Notes: generated from the sequence alone by a model not told the origin. Counted from the first letter of the stretch, positions 37,637 to 53,371 are shown. The stretch is 64,000 nt of DNA from Nitrospirota bacterium (GCA_016214845.1 JACRMS010000028.1:16070-80069), one strand, 5' to 3'. Numbers and translations are program-made.

Positions 37637-38029
37637 ATGCAAATGAAAAAAGCTGATGTTTCAAAAACGGGCTCGGTAGATGCAGTTTACTCAGGCATAA
37701 AGAAAATACTCGAAGAAGCACGCAGCACGGCATATCGGGCTGTAAACATTGCCATGGTTCAGGCGTACTGGAATATCGGCCGGGTAGTTGTAGAGGAAGA
37801 GCAGAAGGGGAAAACAAAGGCAGACTACGGGGAATACCTTATCAAGGAACTCGCGAAACGCCTGACAGTTGAGTTCGGAAAAGGCTTCACTGAGACTAAT
37901 CTGCGTTATATGAGGCTTTTTTATCTTTTGTTTAAAATTGCTAACGCAGAGAGTTCATTATTTCCGCTGAAAGGAATTCATCACGCAGTGCGTGATGAAT
38001 TGCCCGTTGTCAGGCCGGATCTGTCCTGA
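37637..38029 (+). pseudogene. N-terminal fragment of a DUF1016 (YhcG-like PD-(D/E)xK nuclease-related) gene; the C-terminal domain is missing
   Basis: EEARSTAYRAVNIAMVQAYWNIGRVVVEEEQKG..ADYGEYLIKELAKRL...GFTETNLRYMRLFYLLF matches the DUF1016 N-region. The ORF stops after 130 aa and about 1 kb with no coding capacity follows. Confidence 0.5.
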
Positions 38030-39021: not shown

Positions 39022-42000
39022 GTGGTCGACGAATATATTCTATCTTGGCTTCATATATCTGATATTCATTTTGGTCACGGTTTTGCATCCGATAAATGGG
39101 ATCAAAAACTTGTCCTGAATAAATTGCTCGAAGATGTAGCCAATGCAAAAACGCGACAAATTCCAAAACCAGACTTTATTTTCGTCACCGGAGATATTGC
39201 AAATACTGGTCACGAATATGATGAGGCAACGGAATGGCTCATCCAGTTAGCTAATTCTATAGCGCTAGATGAAAATCACATATTTGTAATTCCCGGTAAT
39301 CATGATATTCAGAGAAACGTGGCAGGCTATGATCGTAATTTGCAAAGGTTGCTACATAATTTACGGTCTGGTGAAGAAAAAATAGACGACACATTTGCTC
39401 ATGATGAAGATAAATTTTTGTTGACTCAACGTCTCAGCAATTATTTGTCTTTTGCTCGTTCGTTTGCTCCTTTTCGATACATTCATAACCACGATGATTT
39501 GTTCTGGCATTATAGAATTACGCATAAATCGAATCTAATGATTTCATTGCTCGGATTAAATACAGCTTTGCTTGCCGAAGATCAATATGATAAAGGCAAG
39601 TTGCAACTTGGGCTTAAGCAATTAGAGGGTTTTTTGTTAGCTGATAAATCGGCTATGAATGAATTAAAAGTTGTGCTCAGTCATCATCCTTTTGATTGGT
39701 TATCGGATTATGAGACTGCGAGTCGATGGGTAAGAAATAATGCTCATATCCATCTTTATGGGCATATACACGGGACAGAATTTGAGAGTTTACGAGCTGG
39801 GAGCGGTAGCGAGTATATAAAGATTATATCCGGAGCAACTCATTCCCATTCTGACGAACCAGTTAGCCATGGTTATAACATAGCAGCCTTAGTTCATAAT
39901 CAGAAGGACAGCGAATATGGAGTTAGAGTTTGGCCTAGGTTATGGGTTGATCCTGCTAAAGAGTTTCGCGTTGATGTCAACAATGTGCCAGATGGATTGC
40001 ATTACGCTCAGCATAATTTGAAAGTTAGTTTTAACTCTGGTAGCCTATCTGCTGACACCTCATCGGACGAAAGCCCAATCCCCGTTATAATTAAGGTAGC
40101 CTCGTTTGGAAGTACACGATTATGGTCAAATTGTGATTCACCTCCGATTACTCCCTCGTGGGTTGGAAGACACGCTGAATTAGAATTGTTAAGTGATCCC
40201 TCAATTAAAGTATTGGCGATTACAGGCATTGGTGGACAGGGTAAATCTGCCTTGGCTGCTCGTTACATTGAACACAACGTGAATACTGAACAATTTTGGG
40301 ATTGGCGTGACTGTCGTGAGCAAGGCGATACATTACAAACGCATCTTATCAGGATTATTGAAAGAATAAGCAAGGGTCGAATTGCTTGCTCTGCCTTTAT
40401 TGATGAAGGAATTGTAGCTGTTATAGAGTTCTTTTTTGAAATATTAGATGACAAGAAGGGGTTTTTTGTTTTTGATAATATTGACCACTACATTGATGTG
40501 TCAGCTAATAAACCGGTGGAAGGAATAAAACTTTTAATAGATAATGCACTAAGGAAGAGGCATAATTCACAATTTATCTTCACTTGTCGTCCCACTGTTG
40601 CATATGACAATCATCCGGCATTTGTCCAAATTTCTTTGTTTGGCCTTTCAGAGCCTGAAACCCTTGAGTTATTCAAGTTGAGCGGAGTAGATGTTAAAAA
40701 GGGAAATACTCAACAAGGCATTGTCGAAGCTCAAAATCTCACTCAAGGGCATCCGTTGTGGTTAAATCTGATTGCAAAACAAGTTGCTAAGAATCAAAGA
40801 AATCTTGATGACATTTTAACGGACATGAGGCAGGGCAAGGACTTGGATCTTCCATCCGTCATGTTAAATGCAATATGGAAAACTCTAAATGATAAACAGC
40901 GCAAAATTCTTAGATATATGGCGGAAGCTGTTAGACCGGAAACAGAGGAACGTTTAGAAGAGTATATCTGTAATGAATTGAATTGGAATCAATTTAGCAA
41001 AGCGCTTCGAGTTTTGAAAGCCCTAAATCTAATAGTTATCAAGACAGCGCCAAACACTAAAAAAACCTTGGAATTGCATCCTTTAATTCGAAGTTTCATC
41101 AGAACAGAGTTTCCGATTAAAGAGCGTGAAAAATTTATTAATAAGATAGCATCTTTTTTTGATTTGCTAATTTCAAAAATGAGGGGAAGTATAGACAAGG
41201 GAGCCTCCTTTTCAATCTTAGAGCACTGGATATTTCGTGCAGAGCTGGCATTAAATGCTAATAATTACAAGATCGCTTTAAATATCCTCAATGAGGTTAA
41301 AAATGCTTTGCGAGCAACAGGGCATCCTGAAGAATTTGTTCGAGTAGCTAACCTTCTTTTTAAAGAACTCCTTTTTGCTGATGCTATTTTGAATGAATAT
41401 GCTCATTTTGACGATGTATTCAGTTCCTTTATTGATGTGCTATCTCACCTTGGGCAATACGAGCGCGCAGACACATTTTTAAGAAGGTATGAGGATGCGA
41501 TTGAGGGTAAAAGTGCGAGGTACGTTAATTTGTGTAATCTTCGTTGCTACATGTATTGGTGTAAAGGGGCTTATGAACCGGCAGTTGAATGGGGCAACCG
41601 AGGAGTTGAACTCAAGAAAAAGGCCAATATTGATACGCGATTTGAGTGTGAGCATAATCTCGCCTTGGCACAAAGAGATTCTGGAGATATAGCGTCAGCA
41701 TTAATCTTTTTTTTGAAAGGCCATGCTTTAGAAGAGGTGCTTGATCGAGAAAAAGTCGATGAAGACAGAGGTGGTCATTTTTATGGGAATATTGGACGTT
41801 GCCTCTGGTTTCAAGATAATATTGACGGAGCCTTAATATGCTACCAAAAAGCGATAGACTTGTTGGAGAAAGACGATCATGAGCCCAATATAATTGTTAA
41901 TAGAGGATGGGGAAATTTTTGGATTGGAGAAGCGTTAGAGAAAAAAGAAGATTTTCATGCGGCATATTGCTTTTATAAAAAAGCATTTAATTTATGGAAA

Positions 42001-42129
42001 TCTATTTTTCCAATAAAAGCTGCGACGGCGAATAGTAAAATCATAACAATTGCCAAAGATAATCCTGACTTTAATAATATTAATGATTACCAACTTGAGG
42101 CAGTCTGTAGTAGATGGTCGTGCAAGTGA
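39022..42129 (+). CDS. Calcineurin-like metallophosphoesterase fused to a STAND NTPase (NB-ARC-type P-loop) and C-terminal TPR-like helical repeats; candidate Avs-like defence protein
   Basis: The phosphoesterase motifs are LHISDIHFG (DxH), FVTGDIANTG (GD), VIPGNHD (GNHD/E) and LSHHP/GHIHG. Walker A is ITGIGGQGKSALAARY, Walker B-like is FFVFDNIDH, and a TTR-like FIFTCRP and GLPL-like QGHPLWL follow. The C-terminal ~400 aa are alpha-helical and TPR-like. GC is about 38%. Confidence 0.7.
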   Translation: MVDEYILSWLHISDIHFGHGFASDKWDQKLVLNKLLEDVANAKTRQIPKPDFIFVTGDIANTGHEYDEATEWLIQLANSIALDENHIFVIPGNHDIQRNVAGYDRNLQRLLHNLRSGEEKIDDTFAHDEDKFLLTQRLSNYLSFARSFAPFRYIHNHDDLFWHYRITHKSNLMISLLGLNTALLAEDQYDKGKLQLGLKQLEGFLLADKSAMNELKVVLSHHPFDWLSDYETASRWVRNNAHIHLYGHIHGTEFESLRAGSGSEYIKIISGATHSHSDEPVSHGYNIAALVHNQKDSEYGVRVWPRLWVDPAKEFRVDVNNVPDGLHYAQHNLKVSFNSGSLSADTSSDESPIPVIIKVASFGSTRLWSNCDSPPITPSWVGRHAELELLSDPSIKVLAITGIGGQGKSALAARYIEHNVNTEQFWDWRDCREQGDTLQTHLIRIIERISKGRIACSAFIDEGIVAVIEFFFEILDDKKGFFVFDNIDHYIDVSANKPVEGIKLLIDNALRKRHNSQFIFTCRPTVAYDNHPAFVQISLFGLSEPETLELFKLSGVDVKKGNTQQGIVEAQNLTQGHPLWLNLIAKQVAKNQRNLDDILTDMRQGKDLDLPSVMLNAIWKTLNDKQRKILRYMAEAVRPETEERLEEYICNELNWNQFSKALRVLKALNLIVIKTAPNTKKTLELHPLIRSFIRTEFPIKEREKFINKIASFFDLLISKMRGSIDKGASFSILEHWIFRAELALNANNYKIALNILNEVKNALRATGHPEEFVRVANLLFKELLFADAILNEYAHFDDVFSSFIDVLSHLGQYERADTFLRRYEDAIEGKSARYVNLCNLRCYMYWCKGAYEPAVEWGNRGVELKKKANIDTRFECEHNLALAQRDSGDIASALIFFLKGHALEEVLDREKVDEDRGGHFYGNIGRCLWFQDNIDGALICYQKAIDLLEKDDHEPNIIVNRGWGNFWIGEALEKKEDFHAAYCFYKKAFNLWKSIFPIKAATANSKIITIAKDNPDFNNINDYQLEAVCSRWSCK

Positions 42130-42270
42130 AGACGAATTAGTAGTAAATTCTTGGTGCCATGAACACGCAGGACAAGCGGTGTCAAAGACTTGAACGGGGG
42201 TGGGGGTCACAAAACTTTTTACAGGTGACGGCATTTACCTCTAATCTCAGCAGAGCGCATCGTTCAACGC

Positions 42271-42468
42271 CTACTTCCTTTTCCCCAGAACATCAATCAT
42301 CAGGGGGATTGTACTGACTGCTCCAATAATCAGGAGCGTCCACCCTATCTTCTTTCTCTGATCATCTTTGAGCCTGTCTGCCAATAACAGACCTGCGCCT
42401 GCTCCTAGCATTGCGCGTGTGCCGGCTATGAGGGCGATTTCCGGTAAAGTCAAATCCGATTTCTTCAT
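42271..42468 (-). CDS. Small membrane protein (hypothetical)
   Basis: 65 aa with two predicted TM segments (GxGxG-rich). No recognisable family. Confidence 0.3.
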   Translation of the reverse strand: MKKSDLTLPEIALIAGTRAMLGAGAGLLLADRLKDDQRKKIGWTLLIIGAVSTIPLMIDVLGKRK

Positions 42469-42548
42469 AGGTCCTCCTTCGATAACTTAAAGTTTATCTT
42501 CTGACATTTCCTGTTTTAATGTGTTACTGACTTCCGTTTTTTCTGAGG

Positions 42549-42650
42549 GTATCCTCACCTCTACCGCATGTTCCTGCCGATCATCAACAAGCGGAATAGC
42601 ATTATCCGACTGCTCAACTCCATTGATGGTCACACTCGTTTCTCCGCTGC
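42549..42650. repeat. Degenerate direct-repeat copy (~82% identical) of the last ~100 bp (3' coding end) of the cgs-like gene at 44376-44477
   Basis: gtatcctcacctctaccgcatgttcctgccgatcatcaacaagcggaatagcattatccgactgctcaac... aligns to 44376-44477 with 18 mismatches in 102 nt. The copy carries stop codons in the corresponding frame. Confidence 0.65.
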
Positions 42651-42715
42651 TTTAAATAATCTTTCTTTGATCTGACGAAAGACTGTAGGATTCTGACGTA
42701 AATCTGACGAATAAA

Positions 42716-44233
42716 CTATTCCTTAAGAACATAGTGGGTTGCCCTCCCGGCCCCCTTCTGTCTGATAAGTTCTAACGCCATGAGTCTCTTGAAGTCTCTA
42801 TTTGCCGTATCTCTTGTAATCCCAAAGGTCTTTGTACATTCCTCGCTGTTTATCCTTGCGTGACCGAGGATGTACTTGAGGATGTCTCTTTGTCTCGTTG
42901 TTAACTGGTTTAGTTTATCGGCGGGGACTTCAAAAACAACATTCAGCTTGCCAGGGTTAACCTTAAGAATATCCTCTGGCCCATGGAATGTGACTGTGAA
43001 ATAACCTGCGTCATAATCAAACATCGGAGGCTTAAGGCCGTAGTTAACCATCATATCGTGCATCCTTTTGAATCCGCCGCCCCTTTCTTCCATGAGTTTC
43101 ACGTCAAACAGGGCTCTGGCTATTATTGGATTCCGGGATACAGGGCGGTACTTAAATGATTTCACCATTTCAAGAGTCAATGGTTGAGGGAGTAGACCAG
43201 GGCTTGCTATCACTATCCTGTTACTAAAAATCTGGATCATCACTGTTGCGCCTGATATTCCATAATCCCTGTGAGCGAGGGCATTTATAACGGCCTCCCG
43301 CAATGCCTCAATAGGATACTCAGAAATCTGCACACGTGAAAAACCCTCAATTCTTGCGGCGGTCTTCATGTTCTTGAGGAAGAATGCCTCAGCATCTTTG
43401 ACCATATTAAAAATAGTGCCTTCCATCTCTTTTTGATCTATTGTGTTTGCCGGTCCAATGCCCTGAAAGGCATCTGCCTTTATCTTACTTTGAGGTAGAT
43501 AGTATTCAGGATGCTTGCCGAATAGAAGCAATCCGGCAACGGTTGGAACTAACAGTTTCTTACTGGGCAAATAATGAAGCATGTTCCTCTTTCTGAGGTG
43601 TTCTGTAATTTCGGCTTTACTTTTTAGTTGGAAGCCAGCCGTCTTAAAAAAGAATTCAGCATCTTTCAAGTAAATGTCATCCAGCAATGCATTCATTATG
43701 GGTTTTTTATCAATATTGAGTGAAGTCTTATCAATATCTGAAATACTTTTTCCAACCGGAAGGTCGACTCCGTGCTCTTTCTTGAGATAATGAACCAGTC
43801 CTTTGCGAATCCAATCCTTCAGCTCTCTGTAATTCTCAAATCTCTTGTAACTATATCCTTTATGTCCCTTGAATTCTTTCAATAACTTTTTGAGATTATC
43901 ATCCCTTTCAGTGTCTGTTTTTCCTTTGAGGAAAACGAGAATATATTTCCCGTCGGCCATTGCCTTTCTATATTCTCTTTCCGTCGGTGAAAGGCCGTCT
44001 TCATCGAGTGTGCCATATTCATTTCCGAATAGGCCGATGTACACATCGCACTCTTTCAGTTTTTCAAGATATGCCGCTCTTGAGGGTACCGCCATAGGAG
44101 GAAACCCTTCCCACATCTCGACATCAAAATAACGGCTGAGAAACTCATTCTCCATAATCGCCTCTTCAACGGCAAGGCGTTCATTCATGAGTTCTTTTAG
44201 GACAGAGCTGATGAATATCTTGATTTTCTTCAT
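42716..44233 (-). CDS. DUF4062 N-terminal domain fused to AlbA_2 (Schlafen-like divergent AAA_4), HATPase_c_4 and C-terminal wHTH
   Basis: N-terminus MKKIKIFISSVLKELMNERLAVEEA...CDVYIGLFGNEYG (DUF4062 pattern). The middle has LLFGKHPEYYLP (AlbA_2). It continues EAVINALAHRDY...IASPGLLP...RNPIIA (HATPase_c_4). The C-terminus is a DNA-binding HTH. Confidence 0.7.
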   Translation of the reverse strand: MKKIKIFISSVLKELMNERLAVEEAIMENEFLSRYFDVEMWEGFPPMAVPSRAAYLEKLKECDVYIGLFGNEYGTLDEDGLSPTEREYRKAMADGKYILVFLKGKTDTERDDNLKKLLKEFKGHKGYSYKRFENYRELKDWIRKGLVHYLKKEHGVDLPVGKSISDIDKTSLNIDKKPIMNALLDDIYLKDAEFFFKTAGFQLKSKAEITEHLRKRNMLHYLPSKKLLVPTVAGLLLFGKHPEYYLPQSKIKADAFQGIGPANTIDQKEMEGTIFNMVKDAEAFFLKNMKTAARIEGFSRVQISEYPIEALREAVINALAHRDYGISGATVMIQIFSNRIVIASPGLLPQPLTLEMVKSFKYRPVSRNPIIARALFDVKLMEERGGGFKRMHDMMVNYGLKPPMFDYDAGYFTVTFHGPEDILKVNPGKLNVVFEVPADKLNQLTTRQRDILKYILGHARINSEECTKTFGITRDTANRDFKRLMALELIRQKGAGRATHYVLKE

Positions 44234-44358
44234 GTTATCGTTTGTAAAATGTAACAGATTTCAGCAGGAGTTTACAATTACAATAAATCTAAAACTCAGG
44301 GGGCTATGGTGTTGCGGTACCTGCGTAGTTCTGGGCCGTAGAGCAGCCGCATCAAAAG

Positions 44359-47300
44359 TTATCCTTCTGCAACATGTATCCTCACCTCAACCATATGTTC
44401 CTGTTGGTCATCAACAAGCGGAATAGAATTATCAGGCTGCTCAACGCCATCGACCGTCACACCCGATCCCACGCTGCCATTGTGGGTTTGCAACACGGTG
44501 ATATGGTAGAGAGTCTCCCTGTACCGGTAGTGCACTTTGAACGACTCCCATTCAGCAGGAATGCATGGCGCAAAACGCAGTTTGTCCACTTCAAGCTTCA
44601 ACCCTAAAAGTGATTCCATGATAAGCCGGTACAGCCAGCCGGCCGAACCCGTATACCACGTCCATCCACCGCGGCCTGTGTGCGGTGAGACGGCATATAC
44701 ATCGGCTGCGACAACGTACGGTTCTACTTTGTAAATCTCTACCTCTTCCCGTGATCTCGAATGCCCCACCGGGTTGATCATTGTCAGCAGTTCCCACGCC
44801 CGGCGGCTGTCGCCTGACTTTGCGAACGCCATTGCCGCCCAGATCGCGGCATGAGTGTACTGCCCGCCATTTTCCCTGACCCCGGGGACATACCCTTTTA
44901 TATAGCCCGGATTCAAATCCGATTTATCAAACGGCGGGTCCAGAAGCTGTATCAGTCTATGCTCACGCCGGACAAGGCGTTTATCCAACGCCTCCATTGC
45001 CATGGCTGAGCGTTTGGCATCACCGGCTCCTGAGAGAACAGACCAGCTTTGCGCGATGGAATCGATCTGGCACTCGGAATTACCCGCTGAACCAAGCGGC
45101 GAGCCGTCATCGAAGAAAGCGCGGAGGTACCACTCACCGTCCCAGCCGTTCTGTTCGATATTACTGCGCAGATGGGCCGCTTCCTTCAAGCAGAGTTCGG
45201 CAACGGGCAGGTCTTCACGCAGGCGTGCGATCTCAGTGAACTGCATGAGCACTTTATAAAGAAAGAACCCCAGCCAAATGCTTTCGCCTTTGCCGTGTTC
45301 GCCCACCATGTTCATGCCGTCGTTCCAGTCGCCCGATCCGATGAGCGGCAGGCCGCGTTCACCAAAATTAAGGCCCTTCATGATCGCCTGCACACAATGA
45401 TCGTACAAACTTGCAGTTTGTTCAGACCGGATGGGAAGATCATAATACGAGTCCTCATCGGCGTTAACCTGGCGGCCCTCGATGAAGTGGATGAGTTCAT
45501 CCAGTACCCCGGTGTCTCCTGTGCTCATAACGTAGCGGGATGCAGCCAGCGGCAGCCAGAGGAAATCGTCTGAACAGCGGGTGCGCACGCCCCTTCCAGA
45601 TGGAGGATGCCACCAATGCTGGACATCACCTTCCTTGAACTGATGGGCCGCGCAAAGGAGCAGATGCTGACGCAGGAGGCCCGGTTCCGCGTGGATGAGC
45701 GACATCATGTCCTGTAACTGGTCGCGGAAACCGAAGGCGCCCCCTGACTGATAGTATCCGCTGCGCGCCCAAATGCGGCATGCAAGAGTCTGGTATAAGA
45801 GCCATCCATTGGTCAGGATATTGACTGACTGGTCGGGCGTTTCCACCTGCACTGCGCCAAGTGTGTGGTTCCAGTACTGCCACACTGCGTCAAGAGCGCC
45901 GCGCGCGGCAGCAGGACCCCGGAAACGAAACACCAGGTTAGCGGCGTCATCGGTATCTCGTCCTAACCCGAGCCTGAAGATGATCTCGCGCTCTTGTCCT
46001 TCAGCCAGATCGAACGGGACTTGAATGGCCGCACAGGGATCAAGTGCAGCGCCTACCTTGCCGGAAAGCCTCATCCTGGTCATAGCCGCAGGATTCCTAA
46101 GAGTGCCGTTACGTCCAAGGAATTCGGTCCGGTCGCTGCTTACAGTTCGGGTAAAATCATCTACGTCGAAGAATGCAACCCTGCCGGGGAATTCCATATT
46201 GTAAGGGTTTCGGGCGAAGAGTGCGCCGCTATTAGAATTGATCTCTGTGATGACATGCATTGCTGTTTTGGGGCGCAGATCTCCCAGCACCCATTCCACA
46301 TATCCTGTAGCGGAAAGCCGCCGGGGCCGGCCTGACTCGTTTCGCACCTTGATCACCGTGAACTTGACCGATGCGTCAATGGCCGAGTAAACCCAAACCT
46401 CCGAGTGTATACCGCGCTCTGTGTGCTCAAATACACTGTAGCCGAATCCGTGCCGTGTGACATAGGGCGTTGTCCCGCGGCAGGGCAGCGGAGCTGGAGA
46501 CCAGTAATGTCCGCGCTCTTCGTCACGGAGATAGAAGGCTTCACCGCTCGTGTCGCCCACCGGATCATTGCACCATGGAGTAAGGCGGAACTCATGTGCA
46601 TTCTCACCCCATGTGTAGGAAAGTCCGCTCTCTGAGATGACCGTTCCGAAGTGCGGATTCGCAAGCATATTCACCCATGGCGCAGGTGTCACCTGACCGG
46701 GAGTTGTCGTGATGATGTACTCGCGCCCGTCAGGCGTGAATCCGCCCAGCCCGTTGAAGAACGACAGGTCTTTGCGGGGCATAGCTGCGGCAGCCGGAGG
46801 TTCGGAGCGGTGGGTCCGTGTCGGAGTTAGGAGAGGCATTGTTATTTCCGCGGGACCGCGGCGGTTGATCTGGTCCGTTAATGACCCGCGGCTGTCGGTG
46901 ATGATGGCGCGCGCAACTGTTTGAAACAGTATCCGGTCCTCGTTGGATATCTGGTCCGCGGGCCTGACAAAAATGCCTCCGGGCTTATCTGTCACATTGG
47001 CTTCGATGCCCGCGGCAATGAGGCCCATGATCTGGTCGTTCAGCAGCTGCCGGTAACCGGCGTGGTCTTCGTTCCAGATCACCAGATCAACTACAAGTCC
47101 TTTTAAACGCCAGTAGGCATGTGCCTGCACGAGTTGGCGCACCAGGTTGATATTGGCAATATTTTCGATCTGCAGCAGTACGATCGGCAGATCGCCTGAG
47201 ATGGCGTATCCCCAGAGGCCGGATTGTCCCCGATGGTTCTTGATGAGGATGCTCGCGTCGGCCCGCAGGGAGGAATTGGCATAGATTATCGATCCGGCAA

Positions 47301-50300
47301 GACGCTCGTAGAGTTGCGCGTCGGCCTCCGAGGCATTGAATTGCCGCAGAAGCACCTGGCCATGTGTCCATGCAAGATCAAAGACGCGGTCCGCGAGGCG
47401 ACGATCATGGTATTTCTGCACAAGGCTTAAAGCTGAATCGCGGGATCCGCCTATGCCGGAGACAATGTCTATTGTGACCGATTCTTCCGGTTCCAGCGTT
47501 ATCCGATACCGGATAGAGACGATCGGATCGAGCACTGAGCCCTCACTGCCCGAGAGAGCACCGGTAAAAAAACCTCCCGCGCCGATCATCGCCTGCGGGC
47601 TGGCGACCGTGTTACCGCGGCCGATGAACTGCATGCGGTCCGTCTCGTAGGAGACTTCTCCTATCTCCGCGCCATGAACGGCCATCAGGTGAAACATCCA
47701 TGGTACGTGCTCTCCCTCAGAGCGTGGACGGCGTGTGCAAAGGATCGCACGCTGCATGCTTATGATCTCTGTCTGAACAAAGAGATTGCTGAATGCCGGA
47801 TGCAGTGCGTCAGCGGCTGGCGGCGCAAGGACCACTTCGGCGTAACTCGTAACATCAAGCGCCCTGCGCGTCCGCGCCCGGTTGGTAATGCGGACCCTGC
47901 GCAGTTCAATATCATCCTCAGGTGAAACAGCGATCTCGGTATGTGTGTCATAGTCGTGGTCCCTGCAGCGGAACTCCGCTTTAGACTCTGAGAAGATCGC
48001 TTCGTAAATGTCCGATTTATTGTCCGGCCGTTTCAGCGCAGGCTGATACGCGGTGGACCAGAACTCTCCGCTCGCAACGTCCCGGAGGTAACAGAACGTC
48101 CCCCAGTTGTCGCGGGTACTGTCTTCGCGCCAGCGTGTAACTGCGAGGTCCTTCCAGCGGCTGTAGCCGCCCCCGGCGTTCGTGATCATTACGTGGTATC
48201 TGCCGTTGGAGAGCAGCTGCACTTCCGGGTTTGAGGTATCAGGAGTGTTAAAAACGCGCACGGGCATTTCCGGCCCGATAAAGGCCGCCTGTATTTCGGA
48301 GAGCTCGGAAGTGTGCGAATAGAAAGCCGTGGCCTTCGGCACCCGCTCCTGAAGCAGCAGCATGGTTGCCTGGAACACCGGGTCCGCCTCGAAACGCTTC
48401 TGCATCGGACGGTCAAGCAGCAGATAGGCCAGAGATAGGAGGCTCATTCCCTGGTGATGCGCCATGAAAGACCGGACCAGCGTGTTTGAATGCCCGCGTC
48501 GTTGGCGTGAAGAAGTGTAGTCGATCGCTTCATAGAAGCCGTACCTCCCTTCAAAACCATCAGCGGCGAGACGCTGCAGGTTCAAGCACGCCTCCTCGGG
48601 CGCGATCATCAGCGCGAGAGTCGAGGCATATGGTGCAATGACGAGGTCCTCGGCGAGTCCGCGTTTCAACCCCAGGCCGGGCACGCCAAACGCGCGATAC
48701 TGGTAGTTGAGATGAACGTCGATCATATTGTAGCTGGATTCCGATATGCCCCACGGAACGCCGCGCTGACTTCCATACTCGATCTGCCTGTTTACCGCGG
48801 CCTTATAGGTCTGGTCCAGCAGCGTGTGTTCGTACGTCGGCATCACCAGAAGCGGCATAAGGTACTCGAACATCGAACCGCTCCACGAAAGGAGGATCGG
48901 CTCTCCGCTCGTAGTGGTGAGCAGGCGTCCAAGGGCGAACCAGTTTTCCTGCGGCAGTTGTCCTTGCGCGATCGCTACGAAACTGCACAATCTCGCTTCC
49001 GAGGCCAGCAGATCATAATAACTTGAATCTCTCCTGCGCTCATCAACGTTGTACCCGATGGTCAGCAGATGACGCGTTTCATCATACAGGAAATCATATT
49101 CCATGCGGGAGAGTTCGCCGCACTGCATTGCAAGCCGTTCAATGGACTGAATTCTTGATTTGGCGCGTTCGCTTGCCTCTGCGTCACGATTTGCCAGTTC
49201 GCGCAGCGTCGGTATCTCATCGATACCTTGAACTGTCGTCGGTACAAGGAACGTCAGCTCATCAAGAGCATTCCGGCATTGATCTGCAAAGGCGCGTGCC
49301 CACCAGTTCATTTCGCTGTCTGGAGAGTTGTCGATGCTGCCGATCAGCTCTTCGGCGGACAATGCCAGCCGCTCAAGGGATGACCGCGCTGCCATAAGCG
49401 ATGCAGACGGAAAATTATACAGGGATTCCATATCCTTCTGAAGTTGTGCGAGCCTGGACGGAACAGCTTTTGCTGTAACGTCCGCGAGAATTCTCAGTGT
49501 GTCGTTGAGTCCGTCAAATAATTTTTCTCCCAATATCTTTTGATCGGGAAGTGTGAGCAGTCCTGTCCGTAATGTCAGAAGGTGAGCGGCGAGGTTCCCG
49601 CTGTCTACCGTTGAAATGTAGGTGGGCGGCAGCGGTTTCAGAGACTGAGTGTCATACCAGTTGTAGAAGTGTCCCCGGTGACGTTCCATGCCTTTCATGG
49701 TGCGCAGCGCATTGTCAGTGCGCTCTATGAGTTGTCCGGCTGAAATGTAACCGAAGTCATACGCGGACAAATTCGCGAGCAATGCGAGTCCCATGTTGGT
49801 CGGCGATGTACGATGAGCGACTGAAGCAATGCGATACTCCTGATAGTTATCGGGAGGCAGCCAGTTATCTTCCGGGCCTACGAAGGTCTCGAAGAACGCC
49901 CATGTCTTTCTGGAAAGCTTCCGGAGAAAGATCGTCTGGTCCTCTGTCAGCCTTGCCCGGCTGCGGGCGAGCGGCTGGCTGATCCACCACGCGGTAACAG
50001 GGGAGGAAAACCAGAGACATAATACAGGCACGGCCACTGGTAGAGCGGCCGGATTCGAAAGCGCCAGATAGATCACCGCTGCAAAGGCAACAAGCGGAGC
50101 GGACCACATCGTCCGGCAGAATGCAGCGATATCTCCCGCATTGCTATCATTGCGGTCCCGGCCGCTGTGCGGATTCCACTCCAAAAGCCGTTTGCGCGTG
50201 ATCAGCATTCTCCCGGTTGAACGAACGATCGCATCCAGCGTGAAGAATGCCTCGTAGGGGAGACACACGAGAGTAAATGCGGCCTGAGCAAAGCGCCAGC

Positions 50301-53001
50301 CGGCGGAGCGCACTGCGGCAGTGAGGTGCTGGACCAGAAGTACATCGTCCGGCTTCTGAAGAAGGTCCATGATGGAGGTGATCAAAGAAGGCATCAGTAT
50401 GATGCCGAGTGCCGACAACGTCCAGAACCATGCAGATGGAAGAACAGTCCAGCCCAGCAGCAACAGAAGTGTTAATGCTGAGGGCTCGAGACTGCGCCGG
50501 AGGTTGTCGAATATCTTCCATCGGGAAAGCAGCGAGAGAGGGTTCTTCTGAAAGTTGGTCCTGAGGCCGGGAACTCCCGGCAGCAGCCAGCGAACGATCT
50601 GCCAATCCCCGCGGATCCAGCGGTGACGGCGGCTTACGTCTTCGCTGTAGCAGGAAGGATATTCCTCATATAACTGCACATCGCTCAACAGCCCTGCCCG
50701 CGCATAGCAACCTTCGATCAGATCGTGACTGAGCATAAGGTTCTCAGGGAGACGTCCGCCCAGCGCCTGCTCGAATGAGGCCACGTCATAGATCCCCTTG
50801 CCGATAAATGAGCCTTCCTGGAAGAGGTCCTGGTAAATATCAGATACGACGCGTGTATACGGATCAATGCCCGGATCACTACCGTACATTCTCGCATACC
50901 TGGATAAGTTCGTGCCGGGCAGGCTCACTGCCACGCGCGGCTGAATTATGCTGTACCCGGCAACGGCCCGCTGCCTGCCTTCGTCGTATTGAGGACGATT
51001 CAGCGGGTGGGCCATTGCTCCCACAAGTTCCCACGCTGAATCGCGCGGCAGCAGTGTATCAGTGTCAAGGGTGATCATATATTTCACATCAGACAGGACC
51101 GCAGTATCACCGACTATGAGCGAAAAGCGTTCTTTTGAGACACCCTGTGCTCCGGCATGCAGAAAGGAATTTAATTCCGCGATCTTCCCCCGCTTGCGCT
51201 CGTAACCCATCCAGACCCGCTCCCGGGGATTCCATCGGCGGGGACGATGAAAGAGGAAGAACGTATCGCTTTTTGCATTCCAGTATTTTTTATTGAGCTC
51301 TTCGGTCCTCTTCCGGGCAAGCTGCAGCAGCGGCCCGTCCTCCGGCAGGGTTTCTTCGTCAGCGTCACGGAAATCAGTTAACAGGCAGAAGTGCAGGTTT
51401 TCGTCCCGGTTTGCCAGGAACCTGACCTCAAGCGCCTCGACCAGGGCCTCGATGTTCTTGGCGCTTGTGAGCAGGGTGGGGACTACTGCCAGTGTGCGCA
51501 ATTCCGGGGGGATACCTTTGGAGAAGTCCATTCGCGGCAGAGGATGCGGTGTCAATATCAACGTGGCGATCCAGTTCACCAGCGCAACCGCTAACTGGCT
51601 CGAGCACAGCAAAGCGAGGATACCGGTCAGCGCAAGCAGCCAGTCATGCAGCCCATCGGCATACGCCTTTGCCAGTAAGCTCCCGGTGAAGATCAATGTG
51701 ATCAGAGTGATAGAGCCAAGATATAGGAACAAAGGAAAACGCGAGATAGATTTTCGAAGGGTCTTAAAGACAGATAAGCGCATTTCTGCCCTCTGCTCAA
51801 GCTGTATCAGTCCCTTGTCTATAAGGTAAAAACCGACGTGCGACGTCCGGTCGCCACTGCCTTTCCCGGCCGCGGCCTCGTGCGCCAATTGAATCGCTTT
51901 ACGTGCCACCTCGCTCTCGGACAACCGGCTGTCCTTCGCGATCTTCTCTACAACGTGGCGGTAACGGTCACGAGTAAAAAAATCCATCCTGCCGTAACCA
52001 CCGGCCGGGTCTTCACGAAGTATCCGGTCAACAACGCTCATCGTCTCGACAAACTCGCGCCAGTCCATCGCACCCAGAAAACGGAGGCTGCCGATGCTGT
52101 TGCTTATGGAGACCTGGTCGGCGGCCTGCTGCTGGTTCTCCGACTGCACCAGCTGCTCAACCGTCTGGCCGTATTCGGAGAGCCGCTGCTCGATCCAGGT
52201 AAGCGGTAATGCGAGGGCAGGCCCCTGTCCCTTCAGCCGCCGCGTAAGTTCCGCGACGAACGAACTCACCATCGGCAGGTCTGAGCGCGCCATATCCGCA
52301 ATCACCAGGATCAGGCTCTTCGGGTCTTTCTCCGCGGTCTCCGTCATCCGGTCCGCCCAATGATCAGCGTTGTTCCGGTCGATCCTGTCAGCGGCGATCC
52401 GGGTTGCAACGCGCCGGAGATTCTCGATCAGCGCCAGACGCAGCATGATGGGTATCGCCCACAATTCACCTAACTTCAGGATAGAGACTGTCTGGTAAGC
52501 GTTCACGAAACTGCTGAGGCTCTCCGGATCTACCCGTCCATCGCCATGTGAGATCGTCTCCAGCGCAATGTCATACACGCGCGGAAGACCGGACGACGGA
52601 CCATTAAGCAGCCGGGGCAGTTCCCGGCTGTAGCCCTTCGGCAAATGCCTCCTGGCCGTGCGGATCTGCTCTTCGATCAGATAGAAGTTGTCGAGCAGCC
52701 ATTCACCTGCCGGTGTGATCCTTCGACCGGCCTTTACCGCTTCTGTAAGCAGATTGCGTACATTAAGCAGGACGCTTTCATTCTCATCCAGCCGTGTCAG
52801 GAGATGCTCCGGTGCATGGTCCGTGCTCAACTTATGAGAGCCCGCGAGAAACTTGCCATGCTGCTCCATCTGATCGCTGCTGAACAGTTCCGCGCGAAGC
52901 GGCGGCTCAGTGTCAGGACACTTTTGTGTACGGCTGTTTCCCTGCAGCCTGGCCCGTAAACTGGACAGGTTTTCAAGAACGCTTTTGCTGCTTAGCTTCA
53001 A
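44359..53001 (-). CDS. cgs: Cyclic beta-1,2-glucan synthase-like giant protein (membrane GT84 glycosyltransferase plus GH94 phosphorylase-like domains)
   Basis: About 2900 aa with TM clusters near aa 440-500 and 830-1000. A GT84-like block (ITLDTDTLLPRDSAWELVGAMAHPLNRPQYD...RAVAGYSIIQPRV) is followed by GH94/glycoamylase-like alpha-alpha-barrel regions. The ORF track extends to an ATG at 53070, but a TTG at 53001 is preceded by a perfect SD (AAGGAG at 53012-53017) and lies downstream of the 53023-53052 palindrome. GC is about 60% against about 50% for flanking genes. Confidence 0.75.
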   Translation of the reverse strand: MKLSSKSVLENLSSLRARLQGNSRTQKCPDTEPPLRAELFSSDQMEQHGKFLAGSHKLSTDHAPEHLLTRLDENESVLLNVRNLLTEAVKAGRRITPAGEWLLDNFYLIEEQIRTARRHLPKGYSRELPRLLNGPSSGLPRVYDIALETISHGDGRVDPESLSSFVNAYQTVSILKLGELWAIPIMLRLALIENLRRVATRIAADRIDRNNADHWADRMTETAEKDPKSLILVIADMARSDLPMVSSFVAELTRRLKGQGPALALPLTWIEQRLSEYGQTVEQLVQSENQQQAADQVSISNSIGSLRFLGAMDWREFVETMSVVDRILREDPAGGYGRMDFFTRDRYRHVVEKIAKDSRLSESEVARKAIQLAHEAAAGKGSGDRTSHVGFYLIDKGLIQLEQRAEMRLSVFKTLRKSISRFPLFLYLGSITLITLIFTGSLLAKAYADGLHDWLLALTGILALLCSSQLAVALVNWIATLILTPHPLPRMDFSKGIPPELRTLAVVPTLLTSAKNIEALVEALEVRFLANRDENLHFCLLTDFRDADEETLPEDGPLLQLARKRTEELNKKYWNAKSDTFFLFHRPRRWNPRERVWMGYERKRGKIAELNSFLHAGAQGVSKERFSLIVGDTAVLSDVKYMITLDTDTLLPRDSAWELVGAMAHPLNRPQYDEGRQRAVAGYSIIQPRVAVSLPGTNLSRYARMYGSDPGIDPYTRVVSDIYQDLFQEGSFIGKGIYDVASFEQALGGRLPENLMLSHDLIEGCYARAGLLSDVQLYEEYPSCYSEDVSRRHRWIRGDWQIVRWLLPGVPGLRTNFQKNPLSLLSRWKIFDNLRRSLEPSALTLLLLLGWTVLPSAWFWTLSALGIILMPSLITSIMDLLQKPDDVLLVQHLTAAVRSAGWRFAQAAFTLVCLPYEAFFTLDAIVRSTGRMLITRKRLLEWNPHSGRDRNDSNAGDIAAFCRTMWSAPLVAFAAVIYLALSNPAALPVAVPVLCLWFSSPVTAWWISQPLARSRARLTEDQTIFLRKLSRKTWAFFETFVGPEDNWLPPDNYQEYRIASVAHRTSPTNMGLALLANLSAYDFGYISAGQLIERTDNALRTMKGMERHRGHFYNWYDTQSLKPLPPTYISTVDSGNLAAHLLTLRTGLLTLPDQKILGEKLFDGLNDTLRILADVTAKAVPSRLAQLQKDMESLYNFPSASLMAARSSLERLALSAEELIGSIDNSPDSEMNWWARAFADQCRNALDELTFLVPTTVQGIDEIPTLRELANRDAEASERAKSRIQSIERLAMQCGELSRMEYDFLYDETRHLLTIGYNVDERRRDSSYYDLLASEARLCSFVAIAQGQLPQENWFALGRLLTTTSGEPILLSWSGSMFEYLMPLLVMPTYEHTLLDQTYKAAVNRQIEYGSQRGVPWGISESSYNMIDVHLNYQYRAFGVPGLGLKRGLAEDLVIAPYASTLALMIAPEEACLNLQRLAADGFEGRYGFYEAIDYTSSRQRRGHSNTLVRSFMAHHQGMSLLSLAYLLLDRPMQKRFEADPVFQATMLLLQERVPKATAFYSHTSELSEIQAAFIGPEMPVRVFNTPDTSNPEVQLLSNGRYHVMITNAGGGYSRWKDLAVTRWREDSTRDNWGTFCYLRDVASGEFWSTAYQPALKRPDNKSDIYEAIFSESKAEFRCRDHDYDTHTEIAVSPEDDIELRRVRITNRARTRRALDVTSYAEVVLAPPAADALHPAFSNLFVQTEIISMQRAILCTRRPRSEGEHVPWMFHLMAVHGAEIGEVSYETDRMQFIGRGNTVASPQAMIGAGGFFTGALSGSEGSVLDPIVSIRYRITLEPEESVTIDIVSGIGGSRDSALSLVQKYHDRRLADRVFDLAWTHGQVLLRQFNASEADAQLYERLAGSIIYANSSLRADASILIKNHRGQSGLWGYAISGDLPIVLLQIENIANINLVRQLVQAHAYWRLKGLVVDLVIWNEDHAGYRQLLNDQIMGLIAAGIEANVTDKPGGIFVRPADQISNEDRILFQTVARAIITDSRGSLTDQINRRGPAEITMPLLTPTRTHRSEPPAAAAMPRKDLSFFNGLGGFTPDGREYIITTTPGQVTPAPWVNMLANPHFGTVISESGLSYTWGENAHEFRLTPWCNDPVGDTSGEAFYLRDEERGHYWSPAPLPCRGTTPYVTRHGFGYSVFEHTERGIHSEVWVYSAIDASVKFTVIKVRNESGRPRRLSATGYVEWVLGDLRPKTAMHVITEINSNSGALFARNPYNMEFPGRVAFFDVDDFTRTVSSDRTEFLGRNGTLRNPAAMTRMRLSGKVGAALDPCAAIQVPFDLAEGQEREIIFRLGLGRDTDDAANLVFRFRGPAAARGALDAVWQYWNHTLGAVQVETPDQSVNILTNGWLLYQTLACRIWARSGYYQSGGAFGFRDQLQDMMSLIHAEPGLLRQHLLLCAAHQFKEGDVQHWWHPPSGRGVRTRCSDDFLWLPLAASRYVMSTGDTGVLDELIHFIEGRQVNADEDSYYDLPIRSEQTASLYDHCVQAIMKGLNFGERGLPLIGSGDWNDGMNMVGEHGKGESIWLGFFLYKVLMQFTEIARLREDLPVAELCLKEAAHLRSNIEQNGWDGEWYLRAFFDDGSPLGSAGNSECQIDSIAQSWSVLSGAGDAKRSAMAMEALDKRLVRREHRLIQLLDPPFDKSDLNPGYIKGYVPGVRENGGQYTHAAIWAAMAFAKSGDSRRAWELLTMINPVGHSRSREEVEIYKVEPYVVAADVYAVSPHTGRGGWTWYTGSAGWLYRLIMESLLGLKLEVDKLRFAPCIPAEWESFKVHYRYRETLYHITVLQTHNGSVGSGVTVDGVEQPDNSIPLVDDQQEHMVEVRIHVAEG

Positions 53002-53022
53002 GTTTAAGGTCTCCTTATGAGA

Positions 53023-53052
53023 AGTAGGGGCGTATTGCCATACGCCCCTACT
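53023..53052. promoter_or_regulatory. AGTAGGGGCG...CGCCCCTACT palindrome (variant of 35951-35980) immediately upstream of the cgs-like start
   Basis: agtaggggcgtattgccatacgcccctact. It lies in the 5' leader if the start is TTG 53001, or in codons 7-16 if the start is ATG 53070. Confidence 0.4.
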
Positions 53053-53371
53053 CATTAAATGGAATAGCAATCAGGGTGGTGTTTGACTGTTCCTCCATGG
53101 TGGCCGGTGTTATGTTGTAGTGTTATCATTATAGCAGAATAGCAGATTGCTATCTTGAAAGCTGCGGTCCGAAGGGGCGAACAGCCCGTCCGGCGCTGGT
53201 AGTGGGTCAGTTTGAAATTTGAGGGGAAATTAAAAAGTTATTTACATTCTTCAAGATATTTAAAATAGTCAGAACGACTCATTTTTGCTGTATGCATCAA
53301 GTTAATAATAATATCTTCATCCCGGCGCTGCCCTCTTTGAAATTTCTCGCAATAGAGTTTAATCTATCCTG

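What the first reader, a model, noticed from the sequence alone, without database searches (positions are those of the whole stretch)
42549..44477. DUF4062-Schlafen/AlbA_2-HATPase_c_4 gene inserted as a single-gene cassette, bounded by ~100-bp direct repeats that copy the 3' end of the cgs-like gene
Positions 42549-42650 are an 82%-identical, frame-broken copy of 44376-44477, the last ~34 codons of the giant minus-strand gene. Exactly one gene with its promoter region lies between the two copies: the DUF4062-AlbA_2-HATPase_c_4-wHTH protein. This is the footprint left when an element carrying a 3'-end copy of its target gene (attP-like) integrates into the 3' end of a protein-coding gene. The intact gene end is regenerated on one side and a diverged partial copy is stranded on the other. 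No integrase lies between the repeats, so either the recombinase was lost or it is encoded elsewhere. DUF4062 is a defence-island-associated domain of unknown function, and AlbA_2/HATPase_c_4 proteins are Schlafen-like nucleic-acid-binding ATPases.
Basis: seen in the sequence. Interest (0 to 1): 0.75.

Follow-up and report, generated by a model that had tools for sequence, protein, structure and literature searches.

The report
Defence-gene cassette recombined into cgs end
A single anti-phage-type gene (a TIR-like NADase domain fused to a DNA-binding sensor) was recombined into the end of a giant glucan-synthase gene in a Nitrospirota bacterium, leaving the gene's original end stranded next to it; the footprint is real, but both the kind of gene and the kind of insertion are already known.

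Summary
Positions 42549-42650 and 44376-44477 are an ungapped 102-nt direct repeat, 84/102 identical, and one gene lies between the copies.

It is a lineage-specific insertion. In four related Nitrospirota contigs the cgs gene is followed 18-28 nt later by a conserved 65-aa membrane-protein gene (42271-42468 here). That is the empty site.

The left copy is in frame, not frame-broken. It continues into the native long C-terminal tail, the ribosome-binding site and that small gene, so it is the stranded original cgs end. The live cgs now ends in a short tail (HVAEG*) typical of other cgs lineages.

Against the closest relative, similarity switches between the two copies beside a 19-nt identical core. 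This suggests one reciprocal (Campbell-type) crossover with a ~1.83-kb circle carrying the cassette and a foreign cgs 3' fragment.

No integrase is present. A cassette whose protein is 83% identical is flanked elsewhere by a 287-nt duplication of an unrelated gene's 3' end. Six other contexts have no repeat. I therefore favour homology-driven recombination over a site-specific attP.

The protein carries DUF4062 (a TIR-like NADase domain; Swarozyc/Evangelion families, 2026 preprints), HATPase_c_4 and a winged helix. Pfam AlbA_2 is not detected. No further repeat copies exist in the window.

The parts
44359..53070 (-). cgs-like cyclic beta-1,2-glucan synthase gene (2903 aa; GH94 supersandwich, GH94 catalytic and glucoamylase domains). 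This is the target gene.
   Evidence: ORF list; Pfam. It is 84-86% nt identical to the cgs genes of relatives along its length, up to 44378.
44376..44477 (-). Right repeat copy: codons -39 to -6 of the live cgs gene. Its 5' part resembles the native allele of the closest relative. Its 3' part leads into a foreign short tail.
   Evidence: Identity to L125: 5' 50 nt 43/50, 3' 52 nt 45/52.
44359..44375 (-). Short C-terminal tail HVAEG plus stop. It is of the short-tail cgs type, not the native long tail.
   Evidence: L058 cgs ends VEVRIHVAGG* with near-identical DNA, and P0243 ends VEVRIPVAEG*. Only 4/17 nt match L125.
44279..44358 (-). 80-nt filler between the cgs stop and the conserved cassette. 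Its origin is unknown; it is presumed to be donor intergenic DNA.
   Evidence: No match in any fetched locus. It is not conserved among the cassette contexts.
44234..44278 (-). Conserved 45-nt upstream flank of the cassette (TTGTAAACT...GAAATCTGTTACATTTTACAAAC). It looks like a promoter (TTGTAA-N18-TACATT) with almost no leader.
   Evidence: Conserved in 6 of 8 independent contexts, with homology starting abruptly at -45. The promoter reading is an inference; the consensus scan did not flag it.
42716..44233 (-). Cargo gene, 505 aa: DUF4062 (TIR-like NADase) at 1-~160, a DIP2311-like middle region with HATPase_c_4 (328-416), and a C-terminal winged HTH (447-503).
42671..42709 (-). Three direct CGTCAGA iterons just after the stop codon (starts 11 nt and then 21 nt apart). 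They are conserved in every context of the cassette and mark its 3' boundary.
   Evidence: The two-iteron 18-mer pattern occurs once in the window, and the full 18-mer matches exactly only downstream of this gene (6 distinct contexts; the other two vary by 1-3 bases).
42651..42665 (-). Short junction filler between the cassette's 3' boundary and the left repeat copy. It ends in an in-frame TAA.
42549..42650 (-). Left repeat copy, in frame. Its 3' 52 nt are 90% identical to the closest relative's cgs end. Its 5' 50 nt are only 70% identical and are presumed to derive from the element.
   Evidence: Fisher p = 0.0015.
42487..42548 (-). Native long C-terminal tail of cgs (PSEKTEVSNTLKQEMSEDKL*), stranded with the left copy.
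   Evidence: 57/62 nt identical to L125. The same tail is present in L086, L089 and P0241.
42271..42468 (-). Conserved 65-aa membrane-protein gene (called mem65 here). In relatives it directly follows cgs.
   Evidence: 732 homologues. The cgs-mem65 adjacency is seen in L085, L086, L089, L125, L087 and L088. 189/198 nt identical to L125.
44408..44426 (.). Longest run of identity between the two copies (19 nt, CTATTCCGCTTGTTGATGA on the coding strand). Its partner lies at 42581-42599. This is the inferred crossover region.
   Evidence: Informative sites switch from R-like to L-like immediately 5' of this run.

Best explanation
A 1.6-kb single-gene defence cassette entered the 3' end of the resident cgs gene by one reciprocal (Campbell-type) crossover. 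The cassette consists of a promoter-like 45-nt flank, the DUF4062-HATPase_c_4-wHTH gene, and three CGTCAGA iterons.

The incoming DNA behaved as a ~1.83-kb circle, or as the equivalent part of a larger circular vehicle. It carried the cassette plus a ~120-nt 3' fragment of a cgs gene from another lineage, the short-tail type.

Recombination occurred at or beside the 19-nt identical stretch encoding IPLVDD. It produced two hybrid copies. The upstream copy joins the native 5' part to the foreign 3' part and short tail, and it now terminates the live gene. The downstream copy joins the foreign 5' part to the native 3' part, native long tail, ribosome-binding site and mem65, and is stranded.

I infer that the event was driven by sequence homology (host recombination), not by a dedicated site-specific integrase.

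The cargo protein most likely acts as a one-protein abortive-infection system. The DIP2311-like/winged-helix region would sense a phage-derived nucleic acid or protein, and the TIR-like DUF4062 domain would then hydrolyse NAD+.

Shown: the insertion, the identity of the stranded end, the foreign tail, the domain content and the conserved catalytic motifs. Inferred: the circular intermediate, the exact crossover point, the dependence on homology, and the NADase/defence activity.
For: Empty site. cgs is followed 18-28 nt later by mem65 in L085, L086, L089 and L125.

Stranded native end. Against L125, the left copy's 3' 52 nt match 47/52, the tail 57/62, the spacer 17/18 and mem65 189/198.

Foreign end on the live gene. 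The tail HVAEG* matches short-tail cgs lineages (L058 VEVRIHVAGG*, P0243 VEVRIPVAEG*) and not the long-tail relatives.

Reciprocal pattern. Among sites where the copies differ and L125 agrees with one of them, the right copy matches L125 at 8 and the left copy at 0 before repeat position 44. After position 50 the counts are 2 and 4 (Fisher p = 0.015). The left copy's 5' 50 nt are only 70% identical to L125, against 91% for the rest (p = 0.0015). The switch abuts the longest identical run, 19 nt.

Recurrence with a different target. In L114 a cassette whose protein is 83% identical lies between 287-nt repeats (93-94% identical) made of the 3' end of an AsmA/DUF748 gene plus about 45 nt downstream. 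These repeats have a ~130-nt perfectly identical centre.

Discrete cassette. Homology among 8 contexts starts at -45 and ends at about +50.

Function. DUF4062 Pfam hit. Profile match to the solved KpSwz DUF4062 structure, E = 6e-13. TIR-like fold. Invariant F7, E42 and E87-Y88 correspond to the aromatic, Q/W/E and catalytic Glu motifs described for Eva01. The domain is reported as an NADase and a phage defence in 10.64898/2026.05.01.722283 and 10.64898/2026.06.25.731849.

Defence context. Here the neighbours are a Metallophos-STAND gene and DUF1016. In relatives the cassette sits beside Wadjet (JetABCD), and in another contig near a methylase and Vsr.
Against: - No circular form, and no empty-site allele in the same population, was observed.
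- The closest relative is still only about 85% identical in cgs, so the recipient's true native allele is unknown.
- L085 and L089, which also carry mem65, have an allele resembling the left copy in its first ~16 nt. The left copy could therefore be wholly native, with the crossover lying further upstream.
- The informative-site test rests on 14 sites.
- Only 2 of 8 distinct cassette contexts show flanking duplications.
- A 19-nt identity is at the low end of what RecA-type recombination uses efficiently (my own knowledge).
- A 1.8-kb circle has no known means of transfer.
- Defence and NADase activity are untested for this architecture.
Confidence: 0.6

Rival explanations
1. Site-specific integration. 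On this view the cassette is a decayed or trans-mobilised integrative element (CIME-like). Its attP contains a cgs 3' copy, and a tyrosine or serine recombinase encoded elsewhere recognises a core inside the repeat. The CGTCAGA iterons could be recombinase arm sites.
For: Direct repeats, an empty site and a reciprocal pattern are all as expected for attL/attR. The conserved iterons lie at one cassette end, spaced by roughly one and two helical turns. A 13-mer, GATAATTCTATTC, lies at the inferred crossover in the right copy and also occurs in the L114 repeat. Only 3 of 3000 randomised sequences (first-order Markov) reach that length. Integrase genes lie within 10 kb in L115 and L123.
Against: No recombinase lies between the repeats or next to them in the window. 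The repeats in the window and in L114 come from unrelated genes and differ in length (102 vs 287 nt). The shared 13-mer is in the opposite orientation relative to the cassette. Six contexts have no repeats. The iterons are internal to the element, 16 to ~140 nt from the repeat junction, and have no inverted partner at the other end.
Confidence: 0.15
2. One-ended homologous recombination plus an illegitimate join (homology-facilitated illegitimate recombination) of linear donor DNA. The donor segment would carry the cgs 3' region, the short tail and the cassette. It would be anchored by homology somewhere in cgs. Its far end would join at the GCAGCG microhomology inside the recipient's cgs end, duplicating that end.
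For: The left junction is abrupt. Six bases (GCAGCG) are shared by both copies exactly at the repeat boundary. L085 and L089 show that an allele like the left copy's first 16 nt exists in mem65-linked lineages. Filler DNA of unknown origin flanks the cassette on both sides.
Against: The left copy's 5' 50 nt match no sampled mem65-linked relative better than 76% (38/50 to L085 and L086), whereas its 3' part matches L125 at 90%. The right copy's 5' part and the 300 nt upstream of it show the same 84-86% identity to L125 as the rest of the gene, with no detectable donor block. This mechanism is rare, yet the footprint recurs in L114.
Confidence: 0.17
3. An in-situ tandem duplication of the cgs end, followed by insertion of the gene between the copies and long divergence. 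This would be an ancient, fixed arrangement.
For: The 18% divergence between the copies could in principle reflect age.
Against: Four related lineages have the empty site. The live gene's tail is homologous to a different (short-tail) cgs lineage and cannot derive from the native long tail. The stranded copy keeps an open frame and 90-92% identity to relatives over its 3' part, so it has not decayed.
Confidence: 0.03
4. A diversity-generating retroelement, with the two copies acting as template repeat and variable repeat at the 3' end of a target gene.
For: A ~100-nt imperfect repeat involving the C-terminal codons of a gene resembles a VR/TR pair in outline.
Against: No reverse transcriptase lies between or beside the copies. 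Only 8 of 18 mismatches have A in the left copy. The left copy is the orthologous native gene end, contiguous with mem65 as in relatives.
Confidence: 0.01

Closest known systems
Swarozyc (KpSwz), Evangelion (Eva01) and NIR-domain proteins: single-gene DUF4062 TIR-like NADase anti-phage systems (bioRxiv 10.64898/2026.05.01.722283 and 10.64898/2026.06.25.731849; for the third, 10.64898/2026.09.04.749371, only the abstract was seen)
   Same: N-terminal DUF4062 domain with the conserved aromatic residue (F7), the W-E motif (W41-E42) and the putative catalytic E87-Y88. TIR-like fold. One-gene system with a C-terminal auxiliary region. Defence-island context and horizontal spread.
   Different: The auxiliary region here is about 350 aa: a DIP2311-like module with HATPase_c_4 plus a winged HTH. 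Eva01 has a short unannotated AUX and KpSwz has a small HTH/winged AUX that binds the phage portal. Close paralogues swap DUF4062 for a cytidine-deaminase domain. No activity data exist for this architecture.
DIP2311 of Corynebacterium diphtheriae (PDB 3lmm) and the 'RecG C-terminal-like / putative transcriptional regulator' AlbA_2-HATPase_c_4-wHTH proteins
   Different: The N-terminal AlbA_2 (Schlafen-like) domain of that family is not detected by Pfam here (0 of 39 members). DUF4062 takes the N-terminal position.
Integrative elements that insert into the 3' end of a protein-coding gene and replace it with their own copy (attL/attR direct repeats), including integrase-less cis-mobilisable remnants (CIMEs). 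This comparison rests on my own knowledge, not on a tool result.
   Same: Direct repeats made of the target gene's 3' end, an empty site in relatives, a displaced native end, and a hybrid pattern consistent with reciprocal crossover.
   Different: No recombinase. The element is only ~1.8 kb with one cargo gene. The same cassette is associated with duplications of unrelated genes and often with none. The native C-terminal tail is not restored.
Campbell-type single-crossover integration of a circular DNA carrying a homologous fragment (as with suicide plasmids), and homology-facilitated illegitimate recombination in transformable bacteria. This comparison rests on my own knowledge.
   Same: Duplication of exactly the homologous segment carried by the incoming DNA. 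The crossover lies in the longest identical stretch. There is no target sequence specificity.
   Different: Natural examples involving a 1.8-kb single defence gene are not something I can cite. The vehicle and the origin of the circle are unknown.
Integron gene cassettes and pdif modules: small single-gene units bounded by recombination sites (my own knowledge)
   Same: A compact one-gene unit with a conserved non-coding element immediately 3' of the gene, found in many genomic contexts.
   Different: No attC-like hairpin or Xer-type site was recognised, no integron integrase is present, and the cassette carries its own promoter-like flank. Rfam finds nothing.

Membership tests
DUF4062 TIR-like NADase defence proteins (Swarozyc/Evangelion/NIR) | DUF4062 (PF13271) domain | tested here: met
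   Pfam E = 4e-19, 69 bits against a cutoff of 24.7, residues 5-91. All 39 aligned homologues match. Profile hit to the solved KpSwz DUF4062, E = 6e-13.
DUF4062 TIR-like NADase defence proteins (Swarozyc/Evangelion/NIR) | Conserved catalytic Glu (E-Y), aromatic motif and Q/W/E motif | tested here: met
   F7, E42 and E87 are invariant in alignment A2; the sequence has W41-E42 and E87-Y88. The motifs are as described for Eva01: F11, W51-E52, E87-Y88. Correspondence is by motif pattern, not by a joint alignment.
DUF4062 TIR-like NADase defence proteins (Swarozyc/Evangelion/NIR) | TIR-like alpha/beta fold | tested here: met
DUF4062 TIR-like NADase defence proteins (Swarozyc/Evangelion/NIR) | NAD+ hydrolysis and protection against phage | not testable with these tools
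   Requires biochemistry and phage challenge.
DUF4062 TIR-like NADase defence proteins (Swarozyc/Evangelion/NIR) | Auxiliary C-terminal region of the Swarozyc or Eva01 type | tested here: not met
   The C-terminal 2/3 is DIP2311-like (HATPase_c_4 plus wHTH). The KpSwz match covers only profile positions 2-163.
AlbA_2 (Schlafen-like)-HATPase_c_4 proteins | HATPase_c_4 (PF13749) domain | tested here: met
   E = 7.8e-24, residues 328-416, full profile length.
AlbA_2 (Schlafen-like)-HATPase_c_4 proteins | AlbA_2 (PF04326) domain | tested here: not met
Site-specific integrative element (attL/attR in the 3' end of a gene) | Direct repeats derived from the target gene's 3' end, and an empty site in relatives | tested here: met
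Site-specific integrative element (attL/attR in the 3' end of a gene) | Integrase or recombinase within or adjacent to the element | tested here: not met
   Only the 505-aa gene lies between the repeats. The neighbours are mem65, a Metallophos-STAND-TPR gene and cgs.
Site-specific integrative element (attL/attR in the 3' end of a gene) | The same att core at independent insertions of the same element | tested here: not met
   The L114 repeats derive from an unrelated AsmA/DUF748 gene. The only shared word is a 13-mer in the opposite orientation. Six contexts lack repeats.
Diversity-generating retroelement | Reverse transcriptase, and adenine-specific TR/VR mismatches | tested here: not met
   No RT in the 505-aa cassette gene or the four other ORFs scanned between Dus and cgs. 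10 of 18 mismatches are not at A in the left copy.

The most novel reading that the evidence does not exclude
The DUF4062-HATPase_c_4-wHTH cassette, with its conserved promoter-like 5' flank and triple CGTCAGA iteron 3' flank, could be a new kind of minimal mobile defence unit. It would spread without its own recombinase by capturing a fragment of the 3' end of whatever gene lies upstream. It would then circularise and re-insert by recombination into the homologous gene of a new host. That would leave gene-end duplications (cgs here, AsmA/DUF748 in L114), with the iterons serving as the site where the circle is made or resolved by a trans-acting factor.
Probability: 0.12. Interest if true: 0.7.

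Novelty: new variant of a known kind. Interest (0 to 1): 0.45.

Why it matters
This locus preserves a cleanly resolved footprint of how one defence gene enters a conserved chromosomal operon. The recipient's stranded gene end, the donor-type replacement end and several empty sites are all available for comparison.

If the recurrence seen in L114 is general, it would point to a recombinase-free, homology-driven route by which single-gene immune cassettes move between related genomes. That route would also rewrite the C-termini of housekeeping genes.

The cargo extends the newly described DUF4062 NADase defence family to a larger DIP2311-like/winged-helix sensor. A sister lineage swaps the NADase for a cytidine deaminase. 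This pairing gives a natural test of effector modularity.

Tried and rejected
- **Further repeat copies.** I searched the whole window by blastn (word size 7) and tblastn for more degenerate copies of the cgs end. There are none beyond the known pair, so tandem accretion marked by this repeat is rejected.
- **Recombination breakpoint in cgs.** Sliding identity of the window's cgs against L085, L086 and L089 was uninformative. The relatives are about 85% identical and mosaic throughout.
- **GTDB genomes.** 80 cgs loci were fetched. None is syntenic, and none carries mem65 or the full-length cassette gene. One, L011, has a DUF4062-only ORF after cgs.
- **JGI metagenome scan with mem65.** It returned 23 loci, none with cgs next to mem65.
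- **Iteron 18-mer in IMG/VR.** Five hits, none next to a homologue of the gene. By my rough estimate that is about what chance would give.
- **RNA and signal scans of 42100-44600.** Rfam found nothing. The promoter/terminator consensus scan was at background level.
- **Filler DNA.** The 80 nt between the cgs stop and the cassette has no match in any locus.
- **Small overlapping ORF.** The ORF MFLRNS(L/F)FVRFTS... runs through the iterons. I rejected it as the reason for their conservation, because within this ORF the first and third iterons are read in different frames, and the iteron spacing varies between contexts.
- **DGR and in-situ duplication.** Both were considered and rejected (see rival explanations).
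- **Plasmid and phage collections.** Only distant homologues at or below about 37% identity were found, for example 'ATP-binding protein' genes on Legionella plasmids. No vehicle for this cassette was found.

Full report
**Observation**

Positions 42549-42650 and 44376-44477 align without gaps at 84/102 identities. blastn gives E of about 1e-20 against the whole window. This is the only long direct repeat in the region.

Between the copies lies one ORF, 42716-44233 on the minus strand, 505 aa. Four independent Logan assemblies reproduce the arrangement exactly.

The right copy covers the 34 codons that precede the last five codons (HVAEG*) of the 2903-aa cgs-like gene at 44359-53070. That gene has GH94 and glucoamylase domains.

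The left copy is not frame-broken. Read on the minus strand it is in frame for 54 codons, from the junction to a stop at 42487-42489. It is followed 18 nt later by AAGGAGG and the ATG of a 65-aa membrane-protein gene, 42271-42468, called mem65 here.

**It is an insertion, and the left copy is the native gene end**

mem65 has 732 homologues, mostly from Nitrospirota and Thermodesulfovibrionales metagenomes. In contigs of the closest homologues (L085, L086, L089), and in the contig of the closest cgs C-terminus (L125), cgs is followed directly by mem65, 18-28 nt downstream.

The cgs genes of L086, L089 and L125 end in a long tail, (P/S)SEKTEISNTLKQ(E/K)MT(E/D)DKL*. That is the tail attached to the window's left copy.

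Against L125 the identities are:
- left copy, 3' 52 nt: 47/52
- tail: 57/62
- spacer: 17/18
- mem65: 189/198

The live gene instead ends VEVRIHVAEG*. This is a short tail native to other cgs lineages. L058, a Nitrospiraceae MAG, ends VEVRIHVAGG* with nearly identical DNA, and P0243 ends VEVRIPVAEG*.

An in-situ duplication cannot produce that tail, so the live gene's distal end is foreign. The body of the window's cgs is closer to the mem65-linked lineage (86-90% aa over the C-terminal 200-300 residues) than to L058 (81% aa over 600 residues).

**Crossover**

L125 serves as a proxy for the native allele. I took the sites where the two copies differ and L125 agrees with one of them.
- Before repeat position 44, the right copy matches L125 at 8 sites and the left copy at 0.
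- After position 50, the counts are 2 and 4 (Fisher p = 0.015).

The left copy's 5' 50 nt are 70% identical to L125, against 91% for its 3' 52 nt plus tail (p = 0.0015). The switch abuts the longest identical run between the copies, 19 nt at 44408-44426 and 42581-42599.

This is the pattern left by one reciprocal crossover between the resident cgs end and an incoming copy. That incoming copy would have consisted of the left copy's 5' part plus the right copy's 3' part plus the short tail, which reads as a coherent short-tail cgs end. The repeat spacing implies an inserted unit of 1827 nt.

Caveats apply. The test rests on few sites. L125 is only about 85% identical in cgs. L085 and L089 carry an allele like the left copy's first 16 nt. 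A one-ended homologous plus illegitimate event therefore cannot be excluded.

**The cassette is a discrete unit found in many contexts**

The protein has 575 homologues. Sixteen full-length ones are 70-93% identical. I read eight distinct genomic contexts.

Nucleotide homology among them begins abruptly about 45 nt upstream of the ATG, at TTGTAAACT...GAAATCTGTTACATTT. This flank is promoter-like, with almost no leader. Homology ends about 50 nt after the stop, after three CGTCAGA iterons whose starts are spaced 11 nt and then about 21 nt apart.

The full 18-mer of the first two iterons matches exactly only after this gene, in six of the eight distinct contexts; the other two differ by one to three bases. 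Its five hits in IMG/VR are unrelated to this gene and, by my rough estimate, about what chance would give.

**Recurrence**

In L114 the protein is 83% identical. The cassette there lies between 287-nt direct repeats, 93-94% identical. These consist of the last ~255 nt of a 1195-aa AsmA/DUF748 gene plus its downstream ~32-45 nt. The downstream copy is called as a 100-aa DUF748 fragment.

Mismatches sit at both ends of the repeat around a ~130-nt perfectly identical centre. This is as expected if recombination used the best stretch of identity.

Six other contexts have no flanking repeat. Because the duplicated segments come from unrelated genes and differ in length, and no recombinase is present, I favour homology-driven recombination over a sequence-specific attP.

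A 13-mer (GATAATTCTATTC) is shared by the window's right copy and the L114 repeat. Only 3 of 3000 randomised sequences (first-order Markov) reach that length. It is in the opposite orientation relative to the cassette and was found post hoc. I leave it unexplained.

**The cargo protein**

- Pfam: DUF4062 (residues 5-91), HATPase_c_4 (328-416) and a DeoR/MarR-type winged HTH (447-503). AlbA_2 is not detected in this protein or in any of 39 homologues.
- A profile of the family matches the solved KpSwz DUF4062 (E = 6e-13) and DIP2311/3lmm (E = 4e-20).

DUF4062 was described in 2026 preprints as a TIR-like NADase that mediates abortive-infection defence. Swarozyc is activated by the phage portal. 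Evangelion proteins pair a DUF4062 core with a variable auxiliary region. The motifs they define are invariant here: an aromatic F, W-E, and the catalytic E-Y (F7, W41-E42, E87-Y88).

Paralogues 52-58% identical over the C-terminal two-thirds carry a cytidine-deaminase domain in place of DUF4062. That is the effector swapping typical of immune proteins.

The neighbours also fit a defence role. In the window they are a Metallophos-STAND-TPR gene (PADLOC PDC-S60-like) and a DUF1016 fragment (PDC-S02). In L115-L120 the cassette sits beside Wadjet (JetABCD). In L122 it lies near a DEAD helicase and, about 2.3 kb downstream, a methylase, MORC-like ATPase and Vsr cluster.

Distant full-length homologues, 30-34% identical, sit on Legionella plasmids annotated 'ATP-binding protein'.

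**Verdict**

It is now backed by empty sites.

Several details need correction:
- The stranded copy is in frame and is the native end.
- The live end is foreign and shorter.
- No attP-type specificity or recombinase is evident.
- No older copies exist.
- AlbA_2 is unsupported.
- DUF4062 already has a described function.

The cargo is a new architectural variant of a known defence family. The insertion is a known type of footprint with an unusual, possibly recurrent, recombinase-free flavour. Interest is moderate.

Noticed in passing
window 38323-38464 vs L085 12993-13135: A 143-nt stretch is 97.9% identical to part of a YhcG_C (DUF1016 C-terminal) gene in relative L085. The surrounding shared DNA is only 81-88% identical. 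In the window the DUF1016 gene seems fragmented: a DUF1016_N ORF at 37637-38029, and no Pfam hit in the ORFs at 38101-38458. This suggests a recently exchanged and then decayed PDC-S02-type defence gene.
   Followed up: partly
window 39022-42129 (+): A 1035-aa calcineurin-like phosphoesterase-STAND (NB-ARC/nSTAND3-like)-TPR protein matches PADLOC PDC-S60 and an 'Effector endonuclease' model over its N-terminal ~300 residues. It converges on mem65. The DNA between Dus (36100-37110) and mem65 is low in GC (37-44%) and differs in every relative, so it is a variable defence island on the other side of mem65.
   Followed up: partly
L011 11815-12423 (deltaproteobacterial MAG CAWAOR010000008.1): A 202-aa DUF4062-only ORF starts 3 nt after the stop of that genome's cgs gene. 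It is 34% identical to the N-terminus of the window protein. This is a second, independent DUF4062 gene immediately downstream of a cgs gene, out of 80 cgs loci examined. It may be coincidence or a preferred site.
   Followed up: partly
L091 (JGI Ga0172371_10052928) 1132-2830: A mem65 gene 92% identical in protein to the window's is preceded by a 391-aa IS-type transposase-like ORF (my reading of its sequence; no domain search was run) and an uncharacterised 298-aa ORF, not by cgs. The cgs-mem65 junction is therefore disrupted in other ways in this clade.
   Followed up: no
homologues P0145-P0162 and others: A sister group shares the DIP2311-like/wHTH C-terminal two-thirds at 52-58% identity but carries a cytidine/deoxycytidylate deaminase domain (PF00383, PF14437) in place of DUF4062. 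I could not check whether these genes also carry the CGTCAGA iterons, because the look-ups were exhausted.
   Followed up: no
window 44421-44433 (right copy) and L114 around 9852-9864 / 11963-11975: The 13-mer GATAATTCTATTC is shared between the window repeat (at the inferred crossover) and the L114 repeat (at the target gene's stop codon), in opposite orientation relative to the cassette. Only 3 of 3000 randomised sequences (first-order Markov) give a shared word this long. It was found post hoc and is unexplained.
   Followed up: partly
Logan contigs L001-L004 vs window ~44847, 42693, 42369-42376: All four independent Logan contigs begin at the same base, about 490 nt inside cgs (window ~44847). 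Three end at window 42693 (within the iteron block) or inside mem65 (42369-42376). These break points do not coincide with the repeat borders. They may reflect strain variation in the samples.
   Followed up: no
cgs C-termini in L005-L089, L125, P0241-P0248: The last residues of cgs after the conserved VEVRI motif are hypervariable between lineages: 0-30 residues, many different tails. In the loci examined, the long SEKTEISNTLKQ...DKL tail occurs only in lineages where mem65 follows, although mem65-linked L085 has a shorter PLEKER tail. The tail is evidently dispensable or fast-evolving, which may be why its replacement was tolerated.
   Followed up: partly
window 42487-42633 (-): Gene callers annotate a 48-aa ORF here (see the Logan contigs). 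It is simply the stranded cgs end, starting at an internal GTG.
   Followed up: yes
L114 +4..+141 and L123 +2..+140 after the cassette stop: These two contexts share about 140 nt of downstream homology (79% identity), beyond the ~50 nt shared by all contexts. Sub-lineages of the cassette therefore carry different amounts of flanking DNA with them.
   Followed up: partly
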